From: Eledone cirrhosa
Lineage: Eukaryota
Direction of reading: 5' to 3'
Length of the DNA: 64,000 nt
Assembly (NCBI GenBank): GCA_964016885.1
Contig: OZ024745.1
Coordinates: forward strand, 14,384,001 to 14,448,000
In this document: positions 30,416 to 57,990 of the stretch, piece by piece
How positions within the stretch are numbered: position 1 is the stretch's first letter
Layout of the letters: every line of letters starts with the position of its first letter
Notes under the pieces: model-generated
The model's database searches: none
What the model was told of the DNA's origin: nothing
Seen by the model: the letters and a program-made list of their open reading frames with translations, nothing else
Translations under genes and position numbers: made by a program

Positions 30416-30528
30416 AAGAGTAATTATAATAATAAAATGACGATTTGTTACGTCTTCATTACATTTATTGAAGACATAACAAATCTTTTATCATCGTTAT
30501 CATTATCATCATTATTATTACTATTATT

Positions 30529-33500
30529 GGCGACCTACGTAGGAAATTGTATTATCGTGAGCTCCGCAAAGGTTGTTGTTTTCAGTTGTTTCAAATTGCC
30601 ATTTATGGAAATTTTTTGTTGTTAAGTGTTTATAAGGTCACATATATTGCTTTCGGAAAAGGACACTCGAAAAGATTGGGGCCTTGAGCCCAAAATTTAA
30701 ACTTTTATAATTATCAAACAAAAATTTTCTTTGAAAAAATCATGGACGACTCACAGCTACACCAAGCTGACAGCCTTCCTCACAAACTAATACCTTACAC
30801 CAACACCACCATTGTAAATATTACTACGTTTGCCAAGACTAAAAATATAAGCAGTAGCAATAATTTAAATTTGTCTCATGCAGACATTCATTTCCCGTCA
30901 TTACCAACAACTGCAGGTGTTAAATCCGCCCCCCCCACCACCACCACCACAGCGATAACAGAAACAACATAAAAAAAATTATTATCTCGTGACATCGAAA
31001 TGGATTCACCCAGAATCGACTCTTCCACATCGAACACCACTGACGCCACAACCACCACAACTGAAACTAAAAATAACAATAACAAAAATAACAATAACAA
31101 CAGCAGCAACAACAACAATGAGAATAACAACAAAAACATCAACACCACCGCAAATGTGTCGTTTGCCAAGCAGCCAAGAAATGCGAAACAATCGAGGTAA
31201 CTCAGGAGGAATTAAATGAAGCCAAGAGAATGGTAAAGAAAGATGGGTACAGGGTCAGCCCCCCCCCAACCTAATAAAATGGAGCATCGGCGCCTATGCA
31301 CCGTGTCTTATCGGACGATTAACCACCCACATCAGACGTGGGCAGAAATATGGAACCGTGGACGCGTTCTTTGGAACACCACAGGAGGCCAGAGAGCACT
31401 CCATGGCCCCATTAAGAAGCGACGACTCGTCCCAAGCTATTGTGGCCAGAGACTCGTGAAGATCAGGGTGACCCACGTTCCACCGGCCATCGAAATTCCC
31501 TGGCTAATGGCTGCCGTCCTCGCCAGCATCAAGGCCAACACCAAAGTAATTGAAATATCAAAAGAAAAGCAGGAGAACTGGTCCGGATCTGGGATGGAGC
31601 TCCTGATCCAAGCGGACCAAAAAAGCATTGAGGAAATCTCAGAGGTTATAGACTTCACTGACGGCAGCCACCTCACCGTAATCGTAGAAGTCCTAGGTGT
31701 GTCGTTTTTGGTGAAGGCTTTCTGCCCTCAGGCTAAAAAGTTGAGGCTACCTCTCTTACCCACCCCAGTGAGTCAACCATCAACACCACCAACAGCAGAA
31801 ATGGCAGCAACAACTGTAGCAGCAACAACAGAAGCAACTGTAACAGCAACAACCCCAGCAACAGTAGCAAAACCAACACCACCACCCACCCACCACGCCA
31901 GAACTAGCACCAGCGCCTCCCCCCTCCCCCACGCCACAACCAAAACCAACGCCTGTGGAGGATTTTTCACTCCCCGACCTATCGCAACTGGAGACAGATT
32001 GTGACGACGAGGAGTGGGAAACTGTATCAGGAAAAAAGAAAATAGAAAAAAATCCTCTTCCTTCCCCCTCCAAAAACAAAATACAGAGGGAAAGAAATAA
32101 ACTATCAAGCAAAAAGGTTAGGACAGCTATGTCACCATCCACACCATCATCACCAACCCAATCACCACAAACACCAACACCATCACCATCATTAACCCTA
32201 ACACCACCATCACCAACACCACAAAAGTCACCAAAAAGCGAAACAGAAACAAACAAACGCAAACAAAACGCAAACAAAACAAAACAACCAAAACGATACA
32301 CACTACACAGCATTAAATTTGAACAACAACCAATTATTACACTACACTCAACACAACACCAGCATCACAGAAAAAGACTACACAACACCCCAAAAGTTCA
32401 CACCACCTCCAGACATACAAATCACTCGCATCACACAGAAAACGCACACGATACTAAAACAAAAATTCCCCAAAGACATCGGAGACTTCCGACAAGCACT
32501 CTCCAGGAGGATTTATCAGGACATCCTTCCGGAGGAGGCCAGAAGCAGTGAAAAGGATGGAGAAACCATCCTTCCTCTACGAGAAGTAAGGTAAGTGGTC
32601 TTTCCCATCTTTTCCACTCCTTTTCAACATTACTTCACTCATAATAGGCAGAATAGGCAGCATAAATGAGCGTGGCTTGGATTCGTCATGGAAGCAGGGC
32701 CACCTGCTCAAAGACCTCAGGTCACTAAACATAGATGTAGCGGCCATCAGCGAGACCAGATTCTCCGAAGCACGGGCCTTCGACTACGATGTGTACGCAT
32801 CTCCAAGCCGTCCTGGATCGGGAAGGAGGAGTTGCTGTGCTTTTTCGGAGAGGTTTGGATCTCGCCATACGGGCCATCTTCCTGGACCCAGAAGGTGCCT
32901 GGACGTGACCAGCGGAGACGGGCAAGCTTTCAGGCTAGTGGCCGTCTATGCCCCGAGAGGAGCAGGGCGGCCTGATTTCTTCCGGCGTCTGGAGACCTTT
33001 CTTGGAACGTCCCGATCTTTAGTGTTAGTGGGCGACTGGAACGGGATCTTAGATGCACGCTGGGACTGTGTGGGATTAGCGGATAGGGGAGGAGGATGAA
33101 AGAGCCTCACCAACCTGCTCAGGCGTTTTGAACTGTCTGACAGGTACCGATTGGATTTCCCGAATGTGCCAATGTAGACTTGGACAAATCGCATCGGGTC
33201 ATCTAGATCATATCTAGATAGAGTATTTTGTAGGGAAATAAATAGGCTGTCCACAATTTAAGATAGTCAGCTACACGGACCACAAATTCCTGATCTGTGT
33301 GGTTGACTTAGATAGGCTTCATAGACAAGGACCCAACTACTGGAAGCTAAACGCGTCCTTACCAGCGCGCAAGGCCTACAGAGACCGGATTAGCGAACTA
33401 GATAAGCGGGCGTTGACGGGGGCCATCGTCAACAACAAGTGGTGGTTTGCTCTGAAAAGAGCGATTAGAATAGAGTCCATTAGGTTTAGTAAGGCTTTAG

Positions 33501-36230
33501 CAATAGAAAAAAAATAGAGCAGAGGGAGAACTAGTCAGAAAATTAGACGAGGCGCTTAGCAAAGGCATCGCGACCGACGAAGGCTGCGTTGTCAGAGCTA
33601 GGGTGCGTGCTCTCAGACACGAGGGGAGGAAAGCCGTTCAATGGGCCCGAGTGGCGGAGGCGCGTCGTGGCAACAAAGCCACGATCCGGTCTTTGGTGGA
33701 CCACGACGGGCGCATGCTACTCGATCCCGGGCAAATGTGTGAAGCTTTTCAGCGACACTTCGCACAGCTGTTCGGGGGGAAGCGGCGGGCCGGATCGAGG
33801 GATGGACTTTAGTGTCTACCTCGACGAACTGCCGCGGCTTTCGGCCACTGAGGCGGAGTGTTGCGAAAAGCCGATAACAGCCTCTGAAGTACGGGAAGCA
33901 ATGACTAGCTGCACAAGGGGTAAATCACCTGGTTTGGATGGTCTGCCCTATGAACTTTACGTACAGATGCCAGACTTGTTCGAGGCCTCTTGGCGAACGT
34001 CTACTGCAACTGGCAACAGAACGGGAGAATTCCCAGCTCTGTGAGGCGAGGAGCTGTGGCGCTGCTGAGAAAGTATCCGAACAAGGGGGATAACATAGAT
34101 AATTTTAGGCCCATAACTCTGCTAAACACGGAGTTCAAGATTTTGGCCAAGGTGCTAGCAAAGAGGTTGGCGCTTGTCGTTGGTGGTCTGGTGGGAAAGG
34201 CGCAGACATGCGCCATTCCCGACAGATCCATCCACGACAACCTCCACCTCATGCGATTCATCGTAGAGAGGGTAGCTAGGGAACCTGACACGGGTGGGTC
34301 TTTGATCAATTTAGATCAGTCGAATGCTTTCGATAGAGTCGACCATCGTTACCTAGTGGCAGTCCTGAGGGCGGCTGGCTTTGGGCCCCTCTTCAGAGGC
34401 TGCATCGCTGCCATGCACAGCGACATCTGCTCTGTGGTGTGAGTGAACGGTCACCTTTCGGAACCGTTCAACATCATGCGCTCGCTCCGCCAAGGATGTC
34501 CCCTCTCGTCCCTCTTTTACGTATTGACTCTCTCGAGCCATTACTGCACAAACTGGAGACGTTGAGGAGGGTCCCGCGCTAACTAGGATGCGGAAGATCC
34601 GTGTCAGCATATGCGGACGATGTCACCGTGGTGGTGTCGAACTCCAAACACATCGAGGCGATCGGCACTACACTAAGATAATACGAAGCGGTGACAGGAG
34701 CAATGATCAACCAGGAAAAGTCAGTGGGCCTGCAGCTCGGCACCTGGAGAGGCAGGCCCATGCCGTTCAACAGCGTCGTCGGGCGCTGGACGGACGGACC
34801 GGTTAAATTGCTAGGGGTCTCGTTCGGTCCGGACCTCCAGACGGACAAAAACTGGGACGAGGTGACGAGCAGGGTGGCTTCTCTCACCCAGAAATGGGCG
34901 GAGAGGAAGCTATCCCTGAAAGGTCGAGCGGAGGTGGATAACGCGTACATCGCGTCCGTCATCTACTACCGCCTAACCGTCGTACCTTGTCCTAAGCCCC
35001 GCGTGACTGCGCTGGAGCGTTTGCTCTTTCGCTTTTTGTGGAAGGGACGCGCTCCGATGTTCAGGCGGTCCATCTGCTGTCAACACCCGCCACGTGGAGG
35101 GCTGGGCATGCCGTGGCTGATGATGCGCAGACACGCGCTCAGGCTACGACATCTCCACCACTTTCTCGACGGTGCTCAGGCGTGGTCACCGTTTGCTAGA
35201 CGCGTCTTTCCCCAGCTCGTCTCCTTGACGGAGCTGCAGTCCTGGGTCAAGCGAAGACCGAGAGGGAGCGCTTGGAGACTGGAATGTCTTCAGGCGCTCA
35301 CAGCCCTCGACCAATCGGGCAATGTGATCGGTGGAAACTCCACATTGGCGTTCTATAGAGGATAAGTGGAGGGGAAGAGCGACGACGTACTTGGGGAAAC
35401 TCTAGGCGTCGACGAAAATCAACTAGCCAATCTCTTCGGAAGAACTTTTGGGCCGGGGCCTATGGACAACTTCCAGAAATCCCTGGCCTGGCAGTGCTAC
35501 CGAGGAGCTTTGCCAGTTCGGGATAAACTCTACAGGCATGGAGGTGCCGTCAGCCGGGCATGTCCGAGATGCGCGCAGGGCGACGAAACCGTCCTGCACG
35601 CACTCGTCCACTGTCCGAGCATTGCTGACTTGTGGGTTTATGTCGAACCCTGCTATCAGCTGAGTCCATCGTGAGGATTGCCCCGCCCTCTTCCTTTAGC
35701 CGGGAAGGGCAGGTAGTTTTTATCTGTCTGGTGGCAATGGCGAAAGAAATAGTATGGTGGACACGTTTGAAAGGGCTGAAGACGAGGACTTACCTCTTCG
35801 GTGATGCCCTGATTAACTTTTTCAAGTTTCATTTGAAAAGGAAAATCAGGGTAGAGAGGGAAGTGCTCTCTTCCCAGCATTTTGTTGAAAGATGGGTGAG
35901 AGAGGCAAGAATGGCCCGAGTGAATGGGCCTACTCTGAGTATGTGTCTGTAAATTAAAAGTGGAAAACTGGGAGAAGGCACTTGCCCTGGTGGTCAGGGT
36001 CACTGTGGCTTTTTAATGGGCTTTCCCCACGAATGTCCCTCGGAAGTCTCACCCCCCCCCCTATTGGGGAATTTTTTTCATTGTTCTATTGTTACATCCT
36101 CTGTTTCTTGTTTTTTTTACACGCAGAAATGCCCTTTTGTACCGTCCTGTATTGTCCTGTACTGTCCTTAATGTATACTTTATGTAAACCCTTGTGGTTA
36201 ATAAAGAAAGCATTATTATTATTATTATTA
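30529..36230 (+). mobile_element. full-length but heavily mutated Tx1/L1-clade LINE, copy 1
   Basis: Starts GGCGACCTACGTAG after (ATT)n, as copy 2 does. Fragmented ORF1 (30742-32594) and ORF2 (about 32628-35952: APE SET/VYAP/GDWN, RT, CPRC..H..C). Ends AATAAAGAAAGC(ATT)n. Confidence 0.92.
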
Positions 36231-36303
36231 AAAGTACCAGTAATACACTGGAATAATTGCTGGTCTTGTGCCAACAGTAGAAACAATTATTATTATTATT
36301 ATC
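36231..36303 (+). mobile_element. 3' fragment of SINE family A within the LINE's ATT tail
   Basis: AAAGTACCAGTAATACACTGG..CTTGTGCCAACAGTAGAAACA(ATT)n. Confidence 0.8.
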
Positions 36304-36306
36304 ATT

Positions 36307-36490
36307 CTTTTAATGGGCTTTCTCCACAAATGTCCCTCGGAAGTCTCCCCCCTATTGGGGAATTTTTCTTTGTTATTTTATTACATCCTCTGTTTTTTAC
36401 ACGCAGAAATGCCCATTTGTACCGTCCTGTATTGTCCTGTACTGTCCTTAATGTCTACTTTATGTAAACCCTTGTGGTTAATAAAGAAAA

Positions 36491-36530
<40 letters not shown>

Positions 36531-36537
36531 GTTATTA
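36307..36537 (+). mobile_element. 5'-truncated Tx1/L1-clade copy (3'UTR only) with (ATT)n tail
   Basis: Near-identical to 43269-43470. Confidence 0.9.
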
Positions 36538-37617
36538 CTCTTTGAGTCTCAGTCATTGATGTTAGTTAACTGGAAAATTTGTTGAGATGAATATCAAGCC
36601 ACTACCTGCAGCCTCAGATATTCAGGACGTATCGAAGGGTTCTTGCTGTTCCCAACAAGCATGCCTTTTGAAGCGTTCCAAAAAGCGTGAAGGGGCCAAT
36701 TTTCTTTAACCATCCCTGGAAACGTTTTGAGATAGTCCCTAGTGCGCCTATGACAATCGGGATCACTTTGACTTCATGGCAGTTCCAAATCCTTTTTACC
36801 TCCCACTTTAAGTCCTGGTATCGGTTAATTTTCTCCCTCTCCTTCTCTTGCACTCTCGTGTCGAATGGGCAGGCCACATCCACAATCAGGCACGATCTTT
36901 TTTCTTTGTCAAAAACCACCAGGTTAGGTCTATTGTGTTCCAGTTTCTTGTCCGTCTGTATCCTAAAATCCCACAGCACCTTCACCTGATCGTTTTCTAT
37001 CACCGCCTCTGGCTTATGCTCATACCACTTCTCAGAATGTGGTAAATTGTTTACTTTGCATAGGTGCCAGTGGATCACCCTGCCCATCACATCATGTCTC
37101 CAGCCCTTATAGTGAGTCTGGGCTAGGTGTTTACACTCGGATACAATGTGAGCCACAGTCTCCTTTCTCTCTCCACAGATCCTGCACAGTGGGCTAGCCT
37201 CCTCCTTGTAAATATGGTGTTTCAACCACTTCGTTTTGAGGGCCTGCTCCTGCGCAGCCATTAACATTCCTTCTGTAGCCTTTTTAAGGTCTCCTCTTTT
37301 CAACCAGTTCCATGTCTGTGGATCTCTAAATTCAGTTTTCTCAAAGAAGGTACTATGAAGGGATTTTTCCTGAAGGCTGCTCTTTCTCCTTGATGTTATT
37401 TCCTCCTTGGACATCCCCTGGCCTATTGTCCCCTCCTTCAGTACAGTTCTGAGCATTGGCTCCTTACTATCAGTCACGTATTTGTGTAGGTTGTTTTTCT
37501 CCATCTGAACACAGTCCTCTATGCTGATAAGACCTTTTCCACCCTCAGATCTCCTTAAGTAGAGTCTATCGACATCATTCCTCTTGTGGAACATGTTGTA
37601 GATAGTCAATAGCTTCC

Positions 37618-37618
<1 letters not shown>
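36538..37618 (-). mobile_element. 5'-truncated R4/Dong-clade non-LTR retrotransposon, copy 1 (CCHC + restriction-like endonuclease; ORF 36614-37609)
   Basis: LYLRRSEGGKGL, AAQEQAL, CRICGERKETVAHIVSEC, RHD, LWDFRIQTD, RP(N)LVV..D.ACPFD..K..EK..RY, VIPIVIGALG. Flanked by (TAA)n on its own strand. Confidence 0.92.

Positions 37619-37691
<73 letters not shown>
37619..37691. repeat. (ATT)n microsatellite separating Dong copy 1 and Tx1 copy 2
   Basis: Read directly. Confidence 0.95.
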
Positions 37692-37900
37692 GGCGACCTA
37701 CGTAGTAAATCGTATCATCGTGAGCTCCGCAAAGGTTTGTTATTTCCGTTTGTTAAAAATTGCCATTTATGGAATTTTTTTATTGTTAACCATATATAAG
37801 CGCACATACATTGTTTTCCAAAAAGGACACCCAAAAAGATTGGGGCCTTGTGCCCAAAATTTAAACTTTTATGATTATCAAAATATTTCTTTGAAAAAAA

Positions 37901-39873
37901 ATGGCTAATTCACCTCTGCACCAAGCAGCTGAAAGCCTTTCTCACAAATTAACAACTCACACCGACACCACCATTGTAAATGTTACTACGTTTGCCAACA
38001 CTACAAAAAATATAAGCAGTAGCAATATTTTAAATTTGTCTCAGGCAGACATTCATTTCCCGCCATTACCAATGACTGCAGGTGTTAAAGCCTCCACCAC
38101 CACCACCACCATCGCGACAACCACCACCACCACCACCACCACCACCGCGACAACAGAAACAAAAGAAGAAAAAAATAAATTAACTCGTGATGTCGAAATG
38201 AAATCAAGCAAAATGGACTCTTCCCCACCAAAGACGACTGACGTCACCACCACCACAACTGAAACTAAAATTAATATTAACGATAGCAACAACAACAACA
38301 ACAACAATGACATTATAACCCCCCCCCCTCAGTTTCGCCAGAGTAGCAAAACAATTCGAAGCATTTACGGTATCTCAGGAAGATTTAGAAAATGCCAAAC
38401 AAATGGTAAAGAAAGATGGGTACAGGGTCAGCCTCACCCCCCCACCTAATAAAATGGAGCATCGGCGCCTATGCACCGTGTCGTATAGAACAATAAATGT
38501 AAAATCGCGCGGAGTGGAACGGGCATCCGAGTCCCAAATCCAAAAAGCTTTGGGACATGTGTGGGCAAGAAAAACCCACATCAGACGTGGGCAAAAGTAT
38601 GGAACCGTGGACGTGTTCTTTGAAACACCAGAGGAGGCTAGAGAACACTCCATGGCCCCATTAAAAAGTGACGACTTCACACTCGTCCCAAGCTATTGTG
38701 GCCAGAGACTCGTAAATATCAGGGTGACCCACGTTCCACCGGCCATCGAAATTCCCTGGCTAATAGCGGCCGTCCTCGCCGGCATCGAAGCCAACACGAA
38801 AATAATAGCAATAGCAAAAGAAAAGCAGGAAAACTGGTCCGGATCTGGGATGGAGCTCCTGATCCAAGCGGACCAAAAAAGCATTGAGGAGATCCCAGAA
38901 GTAATAGACCTCACTGACGGCAGCCACCTCACGGTAATTGTCGAGGGCAGAAGACCTAGGTGTGTCGTTTGTGGTGAAGGAACCCACCTAAGGGCTTTCT
39001 GCCCTCAGGCTAAAAGGTTGAGGCCACCTCTCCTACCCACCCCAGTGACACAACCATCAACACCACCAGTAGCAGAGATGGCAGCAACAACTGTAGCAGC
39101 AACAACAGAAGCAACTATAACAGCAACAACCCCAGCAACAGTAGCAGAACCAACACCACCACCACCCAACGCTTCAGAACTAGCACCAGCGCCTACACCA
39201 TCCACCACACCACAATCAAAACTAACGGCTGTGGAGGATTTTCCACTCCCCGGCCTATCACAACTGGAGACAGATTGTGACGACGAGGAGTGGGAAACGA
39301 TATCCGGAAAAAAAAAGAAACCAAAAAAGAAAAAATTCTCTTCCTTCCCCCTCCAAAAACAAAATACAGAGGGAAACAAATAAACTAAGAAACAAAAAAG
39401 TTAGGACAGATATGCCACCATCCACACCAGCATCACCAACCCCATCAACCCAAACACCAACACCATCACCATCATTAACTCCAACACCACCATCACCTAC
39501 ACCACAAAAGTCACCAAAATGCGAAACAGAAACAAACCCACAACAAACGCAAACAAAACAAAACAACCAAAACGATACACACTACACAGCATTAAATTTA
39601 AACAACAAGCAATTATTACACTACATCCAACACAACACCAGCATCACAGAAAAAGACTACACAACAACCCCAAAATTCACACCACCTCCACACATACTAA
39701 TCACTCGCATCACACAGAAAACGTACATGACACTAAAACAAAAATTCCCCAAAGACATCGGAGACTTCCGACAAGCACTCTCCAGGAGGATTTATAAGGA
39801 CATCCTCCCTGAGGAGGCCACAAGCAGTGAAAAGGATGGAAAAACCGTCCTTCCCCTACGAGAAGTAAGGTAA
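37901..39873 (+). pseudogene. LINE ORF1 (gag-like, single CCHC knuckle, Thr/Pro-rich), split by two frameshifts at homopolymers
   Basis: Overlapping ORFs 37901-38449, 38403-39383 and 39277-39873. Knuckle CVVCGEGTHLRAFC. Copy 1 reads through the second break. Confidence 0.8.
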
Positions 39874-39907
39874 GTGGTCTTTCCCATCTTTTCCACTCCT
39901 TTTCAAC

Positions 39908-42900
39908 ATGACCTCACTCAGAATAGGCAGCATAAATGCGCGTGGCTTGGGGTCGTCATGGAAGCAGGGCCACCTGCTCAACGACCTCAGGTCACTAAAC
40001 ATAGATGTAGTGGCCATCAGCGAGACCAGAATCTCCGAAGCACAGGCTTTCGCACCGATCTTCGGCGGCTACGATGTGTACGCATCTCCCAGCCGTCCGG
40101 GATCGGGGGGAGGAGTTGCTGTGCTTTTTCGGAGAGGTTTGGATCTTGCCATACGGGCCATCTTCCTGGACCCAGAAGGTAAGTTGGTGGTGCTGGACGT
40201 GACCAGCGGAGACGGGCAAGCTTTCAGGTTAGTGGCCGTCTATGCCCCGACAGGAGCAGGGCGGCCTGATTTCTTCCGGCGTCTGGAGACCTTTCTTGGA
40301 ACGTCCCGCTCTTTAGTGTTAGTGGGCGACTGGAACGGGATCTTAGATGCACGCTGGGATTGTGTGGGATTAGTGGATAGGGAAGGAGGGTGCAAGAGTC
40401 TCAGCAACCTGCTCAGACGTTTTGAACTGTCTGACAGGTACCGAATGGATTTCCCGAATGTACCAATGTGGACTTGGACAAATCGCATAGGGTCATCCAG
40501 ATCATATCTAGATAGAGTATTTTGTAGGGAAATAGATAGGTCTAGCATAGGCTGTCCACAATTCAAGATAGTCAGCTACACGGACCACAAATTCGTGATA
40601 TGTGTGCTTGACTTAGATAGGCTTCATAGACGAGGACCCGGCTACTGGAAGCTAAACGCGTCCTTACCAGCGCGCAAGGCCTACAGAGACCGGATTAGCG
40701 AACTAGTTAAGCGGGCGTTGACGGGGGCCATCGTCAACAACAAGTGGTGGTTTGCTCTGAAAAGAGCAATTAGAATAGAGTCCATTAGGTTTAGTAAGAC
40801 TTTAGCAATAGAGAAAAATAGAGCAGAGGGAGAATTAGTTAGAAAATTAGATGAGGCACTTAGCAAAGGCATCGTGATCGACGTACTTGCGGCGAAATTG
40901 GCCCTTGACCAATTCTTCAATGCAAAGCACGAAGGCTGCGTTGTCAGAGCTAGGGTGCGTGCTCTCAGACACGAGGGGACGAAAGCCGTTCAATGGGCCC
41001 GAGTGGCGGAGGCGCGTCGTGGCAACAAAGCCAGGATCCGGTCTTTGGTGGACCACGACGGGCGCATGCTACTCGATCCCGGGCAAATGTGTGAAGCTTT
41101 TCAGCGACACTTCGCTCAACTGTTCGGGGCCAGTGGCGGGCCGGATCGAGGGATGGACTTTAGTGTCTACCTCGACGGACTGCTGCGGCTTTCGGCCACT
41201 GAGGCGGAGTGTTGCGAAAAGCCGATAACAACCGCTGAAGTACGGTATGCAATGACTAGTTGCACAAGGGGTAAATCGCCTGGTTTGGATGTTTTGCCCT
41301 ATGAACTTTACGTACAAATGCCAAACTTGTTCGGAGGCCTCTTGGCGGACGTCTACTGCAACTGGCAACAGAACGGGAGAATTCCCAGCTCTGTGAGCCG
41401 AGGAGCGGTGGCGCTGCTGAGAAAGGATCCGAACAAGGGGGATAACACAGAAAATTTTAGGCCCATAACTCTGCTAAACACAGAGTTCAAGATTTTGGCC
41501 AAGGTGCTAGCAAAGAGGTTGGCGCTTGTCGCTGGTGGTCTGGTGGGAGAGGAACAGACATGCGCCATTCCCGACAGATCCATCCACGACAACCTCCACC
41601 TCATGCGATACATCGTAGAGAGAATAGCTAGGGAACCTGGCACGGGTGGGTCTTTGATCAATTTAGATCAGTCGAAAGCCTTCGATAGGGTCGACCATCG
41701 TTACCTAGCGGCAGTCCTGAGGGCGGCTGGCTTTGGGCCCGTCTTCAGAGGCTGGATCGCTGCCATGCACAGCGACATCTGCTCTGTAGTGAGAGTGAAC
41801 GGTCATCTTTCGGAACCGTTCAACATCATGCGCTCGGTCCGCCAAGGATGTCCCCTCTCGTCCCTATTGTACGTATTGACTCTCGAGTCATTACTGCACA
41901 AACTGGTGACGTTGAGGGGGGTCCCGCGCGAACTAGGATGCAGAAGATCCGTGTCAGCATATGCCGACGATGTCACCGTAGTGGTGTCGAACGCCAAACA
42001 CATCGAGGCGATCGGCACTTCACTAAGAGAATACGAAGCGGTGACAGGAGCAATGATCAACCAGGAAAAGTCAGTGGGCCTGAAGCTCGGCACCTGGAGA
42101 GGCAGGTCCATGCCGTCCAACAGCGTCGTCGGGCGCTGGACGGACGGACCGGTTAAATTGCTAGGGGTCTCGTTCGGTCCAGACCTCCAGACGGACAAAA
42201 ACTGGGACCAGGTGACGAGCAGGGTGGCTTCTCTCACCCAGAAATGGGCGGAGAGGAAGCTATCCCTGAAAGGTCGAGCGGATGTGGCGAATGCGTACAT
42301 CGCATCCGTCATCTACTACCGCCTGACCGTCGTACCTTGTCCTAAGCCACGCCTGACTGCGCAGACACGCGCTCAGGCTACGACATCTCCACCTCTTCCT
42401 CGACGGTGATCAGGTGTGGTCGCCGTTTGCTAGACACGTTTTTTCCCAGCTCGTCTCCTTGACGGAGCTGCAGTCCTGGGTCAAGCGAAGACCGAGAGGG
42501 AGCGCTTGGAGACTGGAATGTCTTCAGGCGCTCACAGCCCTCGACCAATCGGGCAATGTGATCGGTGGAAACTCCACCTTGGCGTTCTATAGGGGATTAG
42601 TGGAGGGGAAGAGCGACGACGTACTTGGAGAAACTCTAGGCGTAGACGAAAATCAACTAGCCAATCTCTTCGGAAGGACTTTCGGGCCGGGGCCTATGGA
42701 CAACTTCCAGAAATCCCTGGCCTGGCAGTGCTACCGAGGAGCTTTGCCAGTTCGGGATAAACTCTACAGGCATGGAGGTGCCGTCAGCCGGGCATGTCCG
42801 AGATGCGCGCAGGGCGACGAAACCGTCCTGCACGCACTCGTCCAGTGTCCGAGCATTGCTGACTTGTGGGTTTATGTCGAACACCTGCTCTCACGTGTAG

Positions 42901-43211
42901 GACGGATCCAGCTGTCAGCTGAGTCCATCGTGGGGATTGCCCCGCCCCCTTCCTTTAGCCGGGAAGGGCAGGCAGTTTTTATCTGTCTGGTGGCCATGGC
43001 GAAAGAGATAGTATGGTGGACACGTTTGAAAGGGCTGAAGACGAGCACTTACCTCTTCGGTGATGCCCTGATTAACTTTTTCAAATTTCATTTGAAAAGG
43101 AAAATCAGGGTAGAGAGGGAAATGCTCTCTTCCCAGCATTTTGTTGAAAGATGGGTGAGAGAAGCAAGTATGGCCCGAATGAATGGGCCTTCTCTGAGTA
43201 TGTGTCTGTAA
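39908..43211 (+). pseudogene. LINE ORF2 (APE endonuclease-RT-CCHC), open for 833 codons and then frameshifted by a deletion
   Basis: SINARGL, AISET, VYAP, GDWN, SYLDR, TDH, YWKLN, KSPGLD, FRPITLLN, DQSKAFDRV, SVRQGCPLS, YADD. C-terminus 42414-43211 has CPRCAQGDETVLHALVQC. Confidence 0.93.
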
Positions 43212-43483
43212 ATTAAGGGTGGAAAACTGGGAGAGGGCACTTGCCCTGGTGGTCAGGGTCACTGTGGTCTTTTAATGGGCTTTCTCCACAAATGTCCCTC
43301 GGAAGTCTCCCCCCTATTGGGGAATCTTTCTTTGTTATTTTATTTCATCCTGTTTTTTACACGCAGAAATGCCCATTTGTACCGTCCTGTATTGTCCTGT
43401 ACTGTCCTTAATGTCTACTTTATGTGAACCCTTGTGGTTAATAAAGAAAACATTATTATTATTATTATTATTGTTTTTGTTAT

Positions 43484-45695
43484 TCCTTGAATCTCAGTCA
43501 TTGATGTTGGTTAACTGGAAAGTCCGTTGGATTGAATATCAAGCCACTACCTGCAGCCTCAGATATTCAGGACGTATCGGAGGGTTCTTACTGTTCCAAG
43601 CAAGCATGCCTTTTGAAGCGTTCCAAAAAGCGTGAAGGGGCCGATTTTCTTTAACCATCCCTGGAAACTTTTGGAGATAGTCCCCAGTGCGCCTATGACA
43701 ATCGGGATCACTTTGACTTCATGGCAGTTCCAAATCCTTTTCACCTCCCACTTTAGGTCCTGGTATCGGTTAATTTTCTCCCTCTCCTTCTCTTGCACTC
43801 TCGTGTCGAATGGGCAGGCCACATTCACAATCAGACACGATCTTTTTTCTTTGTCCACAACCACCAGGTCAGGTCTATTGTGTTCCAGTTTTTTGTCCGT
43901 CTGTATCCTAAAATCCCACAGCACCTTCACCTGATCGTTCTCCATCACCGCCTCTGGCCTATGCTCATACCATTTCTCAGAATGTGGTAAATTGTTTACT
44001 TTGCACAGGTGCCAGTGGATCACCCTGCCCATCACATCGTGTCTCCAGCCCTTATAGTGGGTCTGGGCCAGGTGTTTACACTCGGACACAATGTGAGCCA
44101 CAGTCTCCTCTCTCTCTCCACAGATCCTGCACAGTGGGCTAGCCTCCTCCTTGTAAATATGGTGCTTCAACCACTTCGTTTTGAGGGCCTGCTCCTGCGC
44201 AGCCATTAGCATTCCTTCTGTAGCCTTTTTGAGGTCTCCTCTTCTCAACCAGTTCCATGTCTGTGGATCTCTAAATTCAGTTTTCTCAAAGAAGGTACTA
44301 TGAAGGGATTTTCCCTTAAGGCTGCTCTTCATCCTTGATGTTATTTCCTCCTTGGACATCCCCTGGCCTACTGTCCCCTCCTTCAGTACAGTTCTGAGCA
44401 TTGGCTCCTTACTATAGGTCACGTATTTGTATAGGTTGTTTTTCTCCATCTGAACACAGTCCTCTATGCTGATAAGACCTCTTCCACCCTCAGATCTCCT
44501 TAGGTACAGTCTATCGACATCACTCCTCTTGTGGAACATGTTGTAGATAGTCAATAGCTTCCTAGTCTTCCTATCCATTTCTTTTTGTTCAGCAACATTC
44601 CATCTCAGAATTCCCGCACTGTACCTAATAATAGACACAGCTGGGGAATTTACTGCGCTTATGGCATTTCTGCTGTTCAGATGTGACTTCAATACGCTCC
44701 TTACTCTCCGAATGTATTCAGTTCTTAACAATTCCTTCATTTTTTTGTTCTTTATGCCATCAGCCTCCAGAACGCCCAAATACTTGTATCCTTCCTCAGA
44801 GTCAATTTCCTTTATCATCTCACCTGTTGGTATCTGGATCCCGTTACTTCTGCTCAACCTACCCCTCCTCATCACAATGACTCCACATTTACCAATACCA
44901 AACTGCATACATATATCACTGCTGAAAATACGGACAGTGTCAACAAGCACATCCAACTCCTTCTCACTTTTCCCGAAGAGCCTAAGATCGTCCATGAAGA
45001 GGAGGTGATTGATGGTAAGCTCTCCCCTTCCCAACTTGTATCCTGCTCTCACTTTTCGCAGCATAATGGTCAAGGGCATCAGGGCAAGGACAAACAACAG
45101 AGGGGACAGGCTATCTCCCTGGAAGATACCTCTCTTGATCTTCACGCTTCCCAAGGATACTCCAGTTGATGTCAACTCTGTCTCCCAGGACCCCATACTC
45201 CTGCCTAGCAACTGTCTGATGCTATCTGCCACCCTGAAGATCTCCAGGCTTTTGGTGATCCAAGAATGAGGCACCATGTCAAATGCCTTTCTGTAGTCTA
45301 TCCATCCCATGGCAAGATCAGTGTGTCTCCTCCTGCAATTCCCCATTACCATCTTATCAATAAGTAACTGGTCCTTTGTACCACGTGACTTCTTTCGGCA
45401 TCCTTTCTGTTCGTCCGGTAACAAGTTGTTTGTGTGGAGGTGATGGTAGATTTCCTCAGACACAATGCTCGTCAACAGTTTCCACATTACGGACAGACAT
45501 GTGATAGGTCTATAGTTGGTAACATCATTACCCTTGATTCGGTCTTTCATTATCAGAACTGTGGTACCTTTTGTCAACCACTCTGGCACCTCACCCGACA
45601 CCAAGCAGTCATTGAACATGGCCGTCAGCTTCGGGTGGAGGGATGTTAAATGTTTAATCCAATACCCCTGCACACCATCCAATACCCCTGCACAC

Positions 45696-45696
<1 letters not shown>
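43484..45696 (-). mobile_element. 5'-truncated R4/Dong-clade non-LTR retrotransposon, copy 2
   Basis: Uninterrupted ORF, same 3'UTR as copy 1, and (TAA)n on both sides. Confidence 0.95.
43559..45682 (-). CDS. RT + CCHC + restriction-like endonuclease polyprotein fragment (707 aa, N-terminally truncated)
   Basis: YRPITCL, EQKGC, WIDYRKAFD, RGIFQGDSLSP, HLLFMDD, YKYLG, CRIC..H....C, RHD, RPD. Confidence 0.9.
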   Translation of the reverse strand: MDGVQGYWIKHLTSLHPKLTAMFNDCLVSGEVPEWLTKGTTVLIMKDRIKGNDVTNYRPITCLSVMWKLLTSIVSEEIYHHLHTNNLLPDEQKGCRKKSRGTKDQLLIDKMVMGNCRRRHTDLAMGWIDYRKAFDMVPHSWITKSLEIFRVADSIRQLLGRSMGSWETELTSTGVSLGSVKIKRGIFQGDSLSPLLFVLALMPLTIMLRKVRAGYKLGRGELTINHLLFMDDLRLFGKSEKELDVLVDTVRIFSSDICMQFGIGKCGVIVMRRGRLSRSNGIQIPTGEMIKEIDSEEGYKYLGVLEADGIKNKKMKELLRTEYIRRVRSVLKSHLNSRNAISAVNSPAVSIIRYSAGILRWNVAEQKEMDRKTRKLLTIYNMFHKRSDVDRLYLRRSEGGRGLISIEDCVQMEKNNLYKYVTYSKEPMLRTVLKEGTVGQGMSKEEITSRMKSSLKGKSLHSTFFEKTEFRDPQTWNWLRRGDLKKATEGMLMAAQEQALKTKWLKHHIYKEEASPLCRICGEREETVAHIVSECKHLAQTHYKGWRHDVMGRVIHWHLCKVNNLPHSEKWYEHRPEAVMENDQVKVLWDFRIQTDKKLEHNRPDLVVVDKEKRSCLIVNVACPFDTRVQEKEREKINRYQDLKWEVKRIWNCHEVKVIPIVIGALGTISKSFQGWLKKIGPFTLFGTLQKACLLGTVRTLRYVLNI

Positions 45697-45769
<73 letters not shown>

Positions 45770-45790
45770 GTAGTAGTAGTAGTAGTATTA
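45697..45790. repeat. (ATT)n(AGT)n microsatellite
   Basis: Read directly. Confidence 0.95.
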
Positions 45791-46889
45791 TAATATATAT
45801 ATATATTTATATATATATATTTATGTATATATATAAAGGTGTATGTCCAATATAAAATTCATGTATGTAGTTTTACATAAGCATAGTATATTAGTTATTA
45901 TGATTGCATACGAGGGGGATAGAAGCTTAAGCAATAAGATTAATGCAACCTAACCCTTGATATTGTTGTAATGGTATTTCAACATTCGATCGGATATAAT
46001 TGTTGCTAATCTCATACATTATACACTTCAAATATAATTAGGTTTCCGTAACTCTTTCTTACAGTTATATAATCAATAGAATAGTGGTATAGCAGAATAA
46101 CCCCCCCCCCCATATATATATATATACATGCACACACACACACAGACAGTCTCACACACACATACACACACACATATATATATACATAGACACACAGACA
46201 CACACATATAAATATGCTTTTCTGTCTGACACTCTAACGATTCTACCAATTCGCCGCCTTGTACCCTATCGATATACTAGAAGATTATTTTAGCCAATAT
46301 CAGTGTCAAAATATTAAAAAAGAAATGTGCTAAGAAATAATGACAGATGCCAGTAATTGAATTTATGTTTTATAACTTTATTACGTGTCAGATTAAATAG
46401 AGAAACAATCTATGACATGGTCGTTTTATATTTTGATCTCATTGTGTAGTTTTTAATAAAACAGTTATATTTTATCTGATTTATAATTTAGAAGCTGAAG
46501 CTTTAATTCTCTCAGTAGATTATTCAAATGCTGTTCAACTTATTTTTAATTATCACGTGGAAGTAATTAAAGTCAGAGAATTCAATTTAATTTCTATGAT
46601 AGAATCTTGCATATTATTTTAGGCATAATATTCAGACTTAGTTAGGACAGAAAATCCTGAAGGTTCAAACAGCATATTATTATCAAAGAATAAAAGACTT
46701 CTTTAAAAGTAACCTGAAATTCTTATTCGATTAATTAAATTTGCCCTCTTGAACTATCTAGTTAATGAATATACATTTCCTGTCAGAGTATATCCCACGT
46801 TTTACATCCAATTAGAATTTCTGATGTAGATCTCAATCTGACGGCAACAGAATCATAAGTGCAATTTCAAGACGTCGATATATCGCTTG

Positions 46890-56211: not shown

Positions 56212-56688
56212 CTATGTGTCTGGTCTGAAGAAAAAGAAAGAGCTAAGTATAGTATGGGGGCAGGACGAGAAGATTTCTGATCTCCTGTTGAGCAAGTTGA
56301 GTCCTGAGAATACTATGGCATGAGATTCAGATAGGCACAGGCTACAAAACCTGCTCAACGAGCTATATGGAGGAGTTTTAGTAAGGCATCTCCAGCTTAG
56401 TGTGTAGGGGGTTTTTGTTTGTTTTAAGTTATGTATATGCCCCGCTAACGACGTGGTATTTTTAAGCTTCTCATATCGGAAGCTATGCTGGTGGGCGTTG
56501 AACCTCGTCTTGAACTCGTTAGCGGTTGATCCAACATACGTCTTAGTATACGTGCCTGTGGTTACGTTACAAGCATATACCACGTTCCTAATAAGGCAGT
56601 GTCCAGCTAGTGGGCATTTGTCCTTCCTTCTGCAATTACACTTTTTAATAGGGTCATGCTCCTCAATCAGGGGTGCATGTCCCTCCAA
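56212..56688 (-). pseudogene. Naiad-type GIY-YIG endonuclease fragment
   Basis: CNCRRKDKCPLAGHC, NVVY..TYVG, FKTRFNAHQHSF, CSLCLSE, LNRRSE..CPH. Confidence 0.9.
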
Positions 56689-56759
56689 GCAGCTGCGGGC
56701 TGCCTAGTGGGACCGGTTCTATTGCCTATTATCCCCCTGGGTCTTTCACTCAGTGGGTT

Positions 56760-57216
56760 GGTCCCGTGCATACTCTAACTTATCTAGGTCTAGTGTGGCA
56801 TCTAGAAAGTTGACTACCTTACTATTTCTATCCATAGTTATTGATAGGTTAAAATTCTTGAAGAATTTATATAGGTCCTTTCTAGTTCTTTCTAGGTTGT
56901 GCCGTTTAAAGTCCACAGTAAGCAATGCGTCGTCACGGTATAGCCCACCTCTGAGGTGTGGGAGCTGCTCGTTGAGCTCCTTGAGCAAGTACAATCCGAC
57001 GAGGTCTGTCACCTGCGCTGAGTCGCTAGACCCCATAGTGATGTCGAAATTGTTACGAGTGTTCTTGCGCGTCGACAATTCATCCTCAAATGTGATAATT
57101 GTTTTACGAGCGGCAAGGACTATGTCAATCTGGGATCTAGTGAGTCCGCCCGTCCGCATTGCCATCATGAACGCCTTATTTAGTAGTATGGGGGATATAG
57201 ACGTATAGTAGGAGTC
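56760..57216 (-). pseudogene. PLE reverse transcriptase core fragment
   Basis: DSYYTSIS, FDITMGSSDSAQVTDLVG, GLYRDDAL, VNFLDATLDL. The thumb domain is missing. Confidence 0.9.
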
Positions 57217-57227
57217 TATATATATAT

Positions 57228-57990
<763 letters not shown>

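What the first reader, a model, noticed from the sequence alone, without database searches (positions are those of the whole stretch)
30529..45790. Alternating Tx1(+)/Dong(-) stack: two unrelated LINE clades sharing and regenerating one (ATT)n target
Seen: (ATT)n-Tx1 full-(ATT)n-SINE end-(ATT)n-Tx1 3'UTR-(ATT)n-Dong(-)-(ATT)n-Tx1 full-(ATT)n-Dong(-)-(ATT)n, six insertions in 15 kb with strict orientation. Known: Dong/R4 RLE elements target (TAA)n, and some Tx1-clade families target microsatellites (Kibi, Koshi). Inference: this Tx1 family is (ATT)n-specific. Its ATT tail reads (TAA)n on the other strand and so builds Dong targets, while Dong leaves ATT tracts for Tx1, giving a self-extending landing pad. 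Tail-to-tail pairs would give convergent read-through transcripts. Different truncation points and decay levels argue for independent insertions rather than one tandem duplication.
Basis: partly seen in the sequence, partly recalled or inferred. Interest (0 to 1): 0.75.

Follow-up and report, generated by a model that had tools for sequence, protein, structure and literature searches.

The report
Two retrotransposon kinds share ATT repeats
Six jumping-gene copies sit end to end in one ATT repeat, two unrelated kinds facing opposite ways, and the same stacking occurs across this probably octopus-like genome, likely because each insertion leaves repeat on both sides as a new landing site, with no detectable preference of the two kinds to alternate.

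Summary
The stack is real. An L1/Tx1-type APE LINE (two full-length copies, one 3' piece) and a SINE end lie on the ATT strand; two 5'-truncated Dong/R4-type RLE LINEs lie on the other; seven ATT tracts frame them. It is not a duplication: same-kind copies differ 4.8-7.0% with dN/dS 0.21-0.45, yet each has closer copies elsewhere. Genome-wide, 170 of 172 sampled ends (three Tx1-type, two Dong families) touch an ATT tract, 318 of 325 ends keep the strand rule, and 69% have another LINE across the tract. Alternation is not preferred (odds ratio 1.36, p 0.45), so no partnership is needed: both kinds likely target the same tract from opposite strands, and each insertion adds a tract. Whether Tx1's tail builds Dong's target, and convergent transcripts, remain untested. 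Dong in (TAA)n, microsatellite-targeting Tx1, stacking by repeated insertion and opposite-strand sharing (TRAS/SART) are published; I did not find an ATT-targeting Tx1 sharing tracts with Dong in eight literature searches (Repbase not searchable). This scan found the same pattern before on other DNA of this genome.

The parts
30488..30528 (.). Left-most, degenerate ATC/ATT tract (likely remnant of the original target)
   Evidence: sequence
30529..36211 (+). T1: full-length L1/Tx1-type APE LINE, decayed (ORF2 in 7 aligned pieces with 7 stops); likely the oldest LINE of the stack
   Evidence: nearest fetched copy 2.9-3.5% away over ORF2/3' end
36212..36229 (.). (ATT)6 tract
36230..36285 (+). 3' end (56 bp) of an abundant SINE, same sense as Tx1; ends in the same CTTGT loop with a 4-bp stem as the Tx1-type LINEs
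36286..36305 (.). (ATT)5 ATC AT tract
36306..36491 (+). U: 186-bp 5'-truncated Tx1-type copy (3'UTR only), very young
   Evidence: identical over all 186 bases to 14 copies elsewhere among the 40 scored
36492..36537 (.). (ATT)13 GTT ATT tract, tail-to-tail junction U/D1
36538..37619 (-). D1: 5'-truncated Dong/R4-type RLE LINE (CCHC, RHD and nuclease region, open frame)
   Evidence: nearest fetched copy 1.3%
37620..37691 (.). (ATT)24 tract, head-to-head junction D1/T2
37692..43451 (+). T2: full-length L1/Tx1-type LINE; ORF1 in pieces with a CCHC knuckle; ORF2 APE+RT 39869-42409 and zinc finger 42357-43211, split by a 112-bp deletion; AATAAA 6 nt before the tract, no poly(A)
43452..43484 (.). 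(ATT)7 GTT TTT GTT ATT tract, tail-to-tail junction T2/D2
43485..45696 (-). D2: 5'-truncated Dong/R4-type RLE LINE, 712-aa open frame (RT, CCHC, RHD, nuclease region), 20-bp duplication at its 5' junction
   Evidence: nearest fetched copy 1.1%
45697..45792 (.). (ATT)24 (AGT)6 right-most tract

Best explanation
Six separate retrotransposon insertions sit in one ATT microsatellite, Tx1-type APE LINEs and a SINE on the ATT strand and Dong-type RLE LINEs on the AAT strand, likely because both kinds of endonuclease target this repeat from opposite strands and each insertion leaves repeat on both sides, which would add one landing site per event. Shown: the anatomy, independent origin, ATT at the ends, the strand rule, genome-wide stacking, and no preference for alternation. 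Inferred from established target-primed reverse transcription: the Tx1-type APE nicks the AAT strand and the Dong RLE the ATT strand, and an RNA end lying in the repeat anneals to the nick (the Tx1 has AATAAA 6 nt before the tract and no poly(A)). Inferred from tract counts: long pure tracts are preferred and tract length is renewed, by insertion or by later slippage, so occupied sites draw more insertions than empty ones.
For: Independent origin: D1/D2 differ 4.8% and T1/T2 7.0%, with dN/dS 0.21 (p 1e-6) and 0.34-0.45 (p 0.007 or lower). Each has a closer copy elsewhere: D1 1.3%, D2 1.1%, T2 1.0-2.0%, U 0%, T1 2.9-3.5%. Across 31 tail-to-tail junctions, Tx1-side and Dong-side distances do not correlate (Mantel rho -0.11, p 0.76). 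Targeting: 170 of 172 sampled ends have 3+ ATT-like units, median 11; 17 of 17 full-length copies have ATT on both sides; 41 of 50 Dong 5' truncation points in view abut ATT. Beyond the tract lies the exact end of another LINE in 118 of 172 cases and a SINE 3' end in 21, which random insertion of an element carrying its own ATT ends could not give. Strand rule: 149 of 150 Tx1 ends and 169 of 175 Dong ends. Systematic 990-kb sample: a tract with a LINE on its left has a LINE on its right in 7 of 10 cases, against 3 of 39 otherwise (p 1e-4); 9 of 13 pure runs of 8+ units lie at LINE ends. Both orders of arrival appear at tail-to-tail junctions: by nearest-copy distance Tx1 looks older in 7, Dong older in 11, and 13 are unresolved, of 31.
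Against: Only about half of 5'-truncated Tx1-type copies keep a tract at the 5' end: 12 of 29 rows by script, 13 of 25 after dropping 4 rows that are not 5' ends and re-reading one. Several of the others join the interior of a neighbouring element, which I read as deletions but did not prove. No target-site duplication of an imperfect repeat unit was seen in the copies whose 5' tract has an interruption near the junction (L213, L215, L223), so how tract is gained is not shown. The observed 69% LINE-next-to-LINE exceeds even the best simple model (58%: each insertion adds a tract, only 8+ unit tracts usable), and those models rest on 7 stacks, so regional preference or tolerance may add to it. 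Samples are the 30 best hits per search, biased to young copies and large contigs. No empty allele or cleavage assay was available.
Confidence: 0.82

Rival explanations
1. Cross-feeding partnership: Tx1's 3' ATT tail specifically creates Dong's preferred target and Dong's flanks create Tx1's, so the two kinds alternate more than chance.
For: Tail-to-tail Tx1/Dong junctions are common: 11 of 29 (second Dong family identified) and 9 of 16. An unstratified table of junctions gave 37, 19, 25 and 29 (odds ratio about 2.3, worked by hand). The first two end-selected subsets leaned the same way.
Against: With six end-selected sets the association vanishes: 42:20 against 34:22, OR 1.36, p 0.45. Dong-Dong and Tx1-Tx1 neighbours are frequent. 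Median tract lengths are similar for all junction types, 9-13.5 units.
Confidence: 0.1
2. Segmental or tandem duplication, or co-mobilisation of a Tx1-tract-Dong unit, produced the repeated junction.
For: One BLAST block runs across U-tract-D1 and T2-tract-D2 at 94%; U is 1.6% from T2's 3'UTR. Three of the junction pairs are within about 1% on both sides. One tandem run of identical Dong junctions exists elsewhere (L279-L281).
Against: dN/dS well below 1; closer copies elsewhere for every member; U is identical to 14 unlinked copies; different truncation points; no Mantel correlation, and the three close pairs have different tract lengths.
Confidence: 0.03
3. No true sequence targeting: both families carry ATT at their own ends and pile up passively in tolerant regions.
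For: Half of truncated Tx1-type copies lack a 5' tract; stacking exceeds the simple models.
Against: Truncated Dong copies start at scattered points, yet 41 of 50 abut ATT. Neighbours are met exactly at their ends and with a fixed strand rule.
Confidence: 0.05

Closest known systems
TRAS and SART in (TTAGG/CCTAA)n telomeric repeats of Bombyx mori (PMC7265360, PMC10088271; passages read)
   Same: Two LINE kinds enter one simple repeat from opposite strands and form arrays.
   Different: Both are R1-clade elements at telomeres. Here an APE and an RLE element share dispersed interstitial trinucleotide tracts, with a SINE and several sister families.
Dong (R4 clade): Bombyx Dong, DongAg, DongBg, Darwinula Dong1/2 (PMC3812793, PMC7998251, PMC3774820; passages read)
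   Same: RT plus C-terminal CCHC/RHD/RLE, single ORF of about 1140 aa in a full copy, (TAA)n on both sides; Dong-R4 is reported as abundant and recently active in octopus (PMC13282606, PMC8967140).
   Different: Sharing of tracts with a Tx1-type family was not mentioned in the passages read. No 5' HDV-like ribozyme was detected here (no Rfam match).
Microsatellite-specific Tx1 families Kibi (TC)n, Koshi (TTC)n and crocodilian (TTCC)n/(TTTC)n families (PMC4494074; passages and section 15 read, figure 3 and supplements not seen)
   Same: L1-group two-ORF APE LINE found specifically in a microsatellite; a SINE sharing target and 3' end parallels Tx1-Mar and SINEU.
   Different: Target is (ATT)n, host is an octopod, and the tract is shared with an RLE element.
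Tandem TEs by double insertion at a preserved target (McGurk and Barbash 2018, PMC5932611; passages read)
   Same: Insertion preserves the target and makes a new one, so dimers with different 5' truncations arise.
   Different: Described for dimers of one family with short target duplications; here mixed stacks of several families of two clades.

Membership tests
Tx1 clade (L1 group) | ORF2 with N-terminal APE, RT and C-terminal zinc finger; upstream ORF1 | tested here: met
   Pfam PF03372, PF00078, PF13966; APE motifs and YADD; CCHC knuckle in ORF1; intact 1152-aa ORF2 in two other copies
Tx1 clade (L1 group) | RT closer to L1 than to R2-group elements | tested here: met
   phmmer against PDB: L1 ORF2p E 1.5e-45 over residues 17-839; R2 7e-17
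Tx1 clade (L1 group) | RT phylogeny groups with named Tx1 elements rather than other L1-group clades | not testable with these tools
   Homologue searches returned no named Tx1 reference; the atlas was unavailable. The label Tx1 rests on recalled features (ORF1 zinc knuckle, target specificity).
Tx1 clade (L1 group) | Target-sequence preference | tested here: met
Dong / R4 clade | Single ORF: RT, CCHC, RH motif, PD-(D/E)xK-like endonuclease, no APE | tested here: met
   1141-aa ORF in full copy L092 with CCHC, RHD and PD..D; no APE domain. In D2 the second acidic residue of that motif reads N.
Dong / R4 clade | RT closer to R2-group than to L1 | tested here: met
   R2 E 1.7e-27 against L1 1e-10
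Dong / R4 clade | (TAA)n on both sides | tested here: met
   3' ends; 41 of 50 truncated 5' ends
Dong / R4 clade | RT phylogeny with named Dong/R4 elements | not testable with these tools
   1667 homologues found, none of those listed named as Dong or R4
Dong / R4 clade | 5' HDV-like self-cleaving ribozyme (shown for Bombyx Dong, PMC3774820) | tested here: inconclusive
   No Rfam ribozyme match in four loci with full 5' ends; no custom model built
SINE partner of the Tx1-type LINE | Shared 3' end with the LINE | tested here: inconclusive
   Same CTTGT loop with a 4-bp stem kept through different letters: 52 of 67 Tx1 ends and 90 of 161 SINE ends fully paired. Folding energies are no better than shuffles; mobilisation itself not tested.

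The most novel reading that the evidence does not exclude
Octopod Tx1-type and Dong LINEs build their own genomic niche: insertion itself adds ATT units, so most long ATT tracts in a 3-Gb genome are made by these elements, and at least six families from two endonuclease lineages plus a SINE live on a resource that each of them enlarges, a cross-clade positive feedback that concentrates tens of thousands of insertions into stacks.
Probability: 0.3. Interest if true: 0.65.

Novelty: new variant of a known kind. Interest (0 to 1): 0.42.

Why it matters
It adds (ATT)n to the target list of Tx1-type LINEs, as far as my searches reach, and shows APE and RLE elements converging on one dispersed microsatellite from opposite strands. 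Sister families at 69-76% identity that seem to end in other repeats give natural pairs for asking how an APE changes its target. It also offers a sequence-level candidate cause for TE hotspots in octopus genomes, where Dong-R4 and L1-Tx1 are reported among the recently active LINEs. The stacking principle itself is known, so the gain is moderate.

Tried and rejected
Duplication or co-mobilised unit: rejected. Preferred alternation: not supported. Target-site duplication of imperfect units: not seen. Empty allele: reads and contigs of six runs were laid; repeats swamped the long stretch and the left flank was skipped as repeat, so there is no verdict. RNA: no RNA holder listed, so expression and convergent transcripts are untested. 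A genome-wide count of junction types was not obtained, so all junction figures come from samples. Rfam found no ribozyme at Dong 5' ends. ARAGORN found no tRNA in the window. NCBIfam was uninformative. No named clade references were returned. Literature searches for an ATT/TAA-targeting Tx1 or for Tx1-Dong sharing gave no such report among the listings and passages seen. Kojima and Fujiwara 2004 and Repbase Reports were not readable; figure 3 and the supplements of PMC4494074, which list Tx1 targets, were not seen and could hold an ATT-type family.
Full report
Observation. One search lists no run of four or more ATT or AAT units elsewhere in the window. The window lies in a 3.0-Gb genome. The closest named homologue of the plus-strand LINE is from Argonauta hians, so the host is probably an octopod.

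Identity. T2 encodes APE, RT and a C-terminal zinc finger, with a CCHC knuckle in ORF1. Its best solved relative is L1 ORF2p, and two other copies carry an intact 1152-aa ORF2. It is L1-group; the name Tx1 rests on recalled features, since no named reference was returned. D1 and D2 encode RT, CCHC, RHD and a restriction-like nuclease region with no APE. R2 proteins are their best solved relatives, and a full copy elsewhere has one 1141-aa ORF. With (TAA)n on both sides this fits Dong/R4 as described in PMC7998251 and PMC3812793 (passages).

Independent insertions. One BLAST block crosses both tail-to-tail junctions, so duplication was a real rival. D1 and D2 differ 4.8%, T1 and T2 7.0%, mostly at silent sites: dN/dS 0.21 and 0.34-0.45. 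That pattern is expected of different active sources, not of neutral decay after copying. Every member has a closer copy among the fetched loci: U 0%, D1 1.3%, D2 1.1%, T2 1.0-2.0%, T1 2.9-3.5% (10% over its first 600 bases). Over 31 tail-to-tail junctions the two sides' distances are uncorrelated (rho -0.11, p 0.76). T1, with 7 stops in ORF2, is likely the oldest LINE here.

Targeting. Each genome search scored the best 40 of 121-1575 candidates and returned 30 loci. All 30 best full-length 5' ends of the window's family start directly after ATT (one being the window's own). Of 20 full-length copies fetched whole, 17 showed the 3' end and all 17 have ATT on both sides. 28 of 29 other 3' ends are followed by ATT. 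Following the neighbours revealed three more Tx1-type families on the ATT strand and a second Dong family on the AAT strand. In six end-selected sets (180 loci; 6 seed loci and 2 tandem repeats of one junction dropped) 170 of 172 ends have three or more ATT-like units, median 11. Of 85 Dong copies, 50 showed their 5' boundary and 41 abut ATT. Against this, only 12 of 29 truncated Tx1 rows had a 5' tract by script, 13 of 25 after removing four rows that are not 5' ends and re-reading one; the tract-less ones are mostly older or fused to the inside of a neighbour. The strand rule held for 149 of 150 Tx1 ends and 169 of 175 Dong ends. The seven exceptions include two stacks of opposite polarity back to back, one rearrangement and weak UTR matches. 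Four more inverted neighbours appear among the 172.

Stacking against background. In 99 evenly spaced 10-kb stretches (990 kb; one of 100 requested did not exist) there are 31 pure runs of five or more units and 13 of eight or more, nine of the latter at LINE ends. A tract with a LINE on its left has one on its right in 7 of 10 cases against 3 of 39 otherwise (p 1e-4). Five Tx1-type and seven Dong 3' ends in that sample extrapolate to roughly 5,000-35,000 and 8,500-44,000 per genome. In the end-selected sets 118 of 172 ends (69%) have another LINE across the tract and 21 a SINE end. Rough models give 16-45% without regeneration and 26-58% when each insertion adds a tract, highest if only long tracts are usable. 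They rest on seven stacks and favour, but do not prove, regeneration plus a preference for long tracts. The window's seven tracts total about 330 bp, whereas the longest LINE-free pure run in the sample is 20 units, so repeat has been gained; whether at insertion or by later slippage is open. No duplication of an imperfect unit was seen across three informative copies.

Alternation. Tail-to-tail pairs are common (11 of 29; 9 of 16), and an unstratified table leaned towards mixed neighbours. The stratified test does not: left neighbour Dong:Tx1 is 42:20 before a Tx1 5' end and 34:22 before a Dong 3' end (OR 1.36, p 0.45). By nearest-copy distance either kind can be the older at a junction (7 Tx1, 11 Dong, 13 unresolved; biased by the queries). 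So the two kinds share the resource without a detectable partnership.

Mechanism. Inferred from target-primed reverse transcription: the APE nicks the AAT strand, the RLE the ATT strand, and each insertion splits a tract in two. The Tx1 3' end has AATAAA six bases before the tract and no poly(A), which suggests an RNA end inside the repeat that can anneal to the nick (inference). The SINE shares a CTTGT loop with a 4-bp stem kept through different letters (52 of 67 Tx1 ends, 90 of 161 SINE ends). It has two or more ATT units near 39 of 81 5' ends against 1.8% background. It is likely mobilised by these LINEs, but the hairpin is weak and this was not tested further.

Known context. Passages read: TRAS and SART enter telomeric repeats in opposite directions (PMC7265360, PMC10088271); Kibi, Koshi and crocodilian Tx1 families target TC-rich microsatellites (PMC4494074, also section 15); Dong targets TAA (PMC3812793, PMC7998251) and has a 5' ribozyme in Bombyx (PMC3774820); repeated insertion at a preserved target makes tandem elements (PMC5932611); Dong-R4 and L1-Tx1 are abundant or recently active in cephalopods, with no target analysis in the passages seen (PMC13282606, PMC8967140, PMC10294476, PMC9115989). 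PMC4640811 and PMC8869645 passages added only background. Eight searches showed no ATT-targeting Tx1 or Tx1-Dong sharing, but Repbase and Kojima and Fujiwara 2004 were out of reach. Earlier notes of this scan describe the same pattern at other loci of this genome (408 notes fit the look-up, 8 shown); they are not independent support.

Verdict. Real, independent insertions into a shared ATT niche; a new target variant and a cross-clade case of known behaviours. Interest 0.42.

Noticed in passing
L096:330-6240, L107, L110, L169, L222: Three or four further Tx1-type families (about 75% identical in ORF2, different 5' heads) also sit in ATT tracts on the same strand; two were sampled (30 loci each) and begin after ATT.
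   Followed up: partly
L094, L103, L104, L106: A second Dong-type family shares the tracts; its 5' head resembles that of the first, and some full copies are preceded by (GAA)n instead of (TAA)n.
   Followed up: partly
L178:9718-9829, L172:2875-3296, L128:5606-9017: More distant Tx1-like copies (69-76%) end next to (TATC)n, (TA)n or AGT-rich repeats, hinting at sister families with other targets; single copies only.
   Followed up: no
L098: Two stacks of opposite polarity meet back to back, each internally obeying the strand rule.
   Followed up: partly
L279-L281 (G000:C1:131997049-132013075): At least three, probably four, copies of the second Dong family at about 5.3-kb spacing with identical junctions: likely tandem amplification of a stack unit.
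   Followed up: no
L097 and L109: An APE-RT element of RTE-like look (label recalled) lies between ATT-rich tracts with the same flanks at two loci.
   Followed up: no
systematic sample, e.g. L119, L134, L169, L198: Another repeat end recurs before short ATT runs at several loci: possibly a second SINE with an ATT tail.
   Followed up: no
systematic sample, e.g. L116, L147, L198, L208: Many SINE copies show apparent target duplications that begin with ATTATT and continue into unique sequence.
   Followed up: partly
window:13134-15452 (+): Decayed LINE with an endonuclease domain (PF14529) and RT-like pieces, CR1-like by recall, not flanked by ATT tracts.
   Followed up: no
window:48831-49469 (-) and 56212-57291 (-): Fragments with GIY-YIG-like and RT-like text, Penelope-like by recall.
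   Followed up: no
window:24107-25055: GGT-rich minisatellite with a 62-bp period, about 15 copies.
   Followed up: no
window:30218-30417: A full SINE of the same family lies 70 bp left of the stack in the opposite sense.
   Followed up: no
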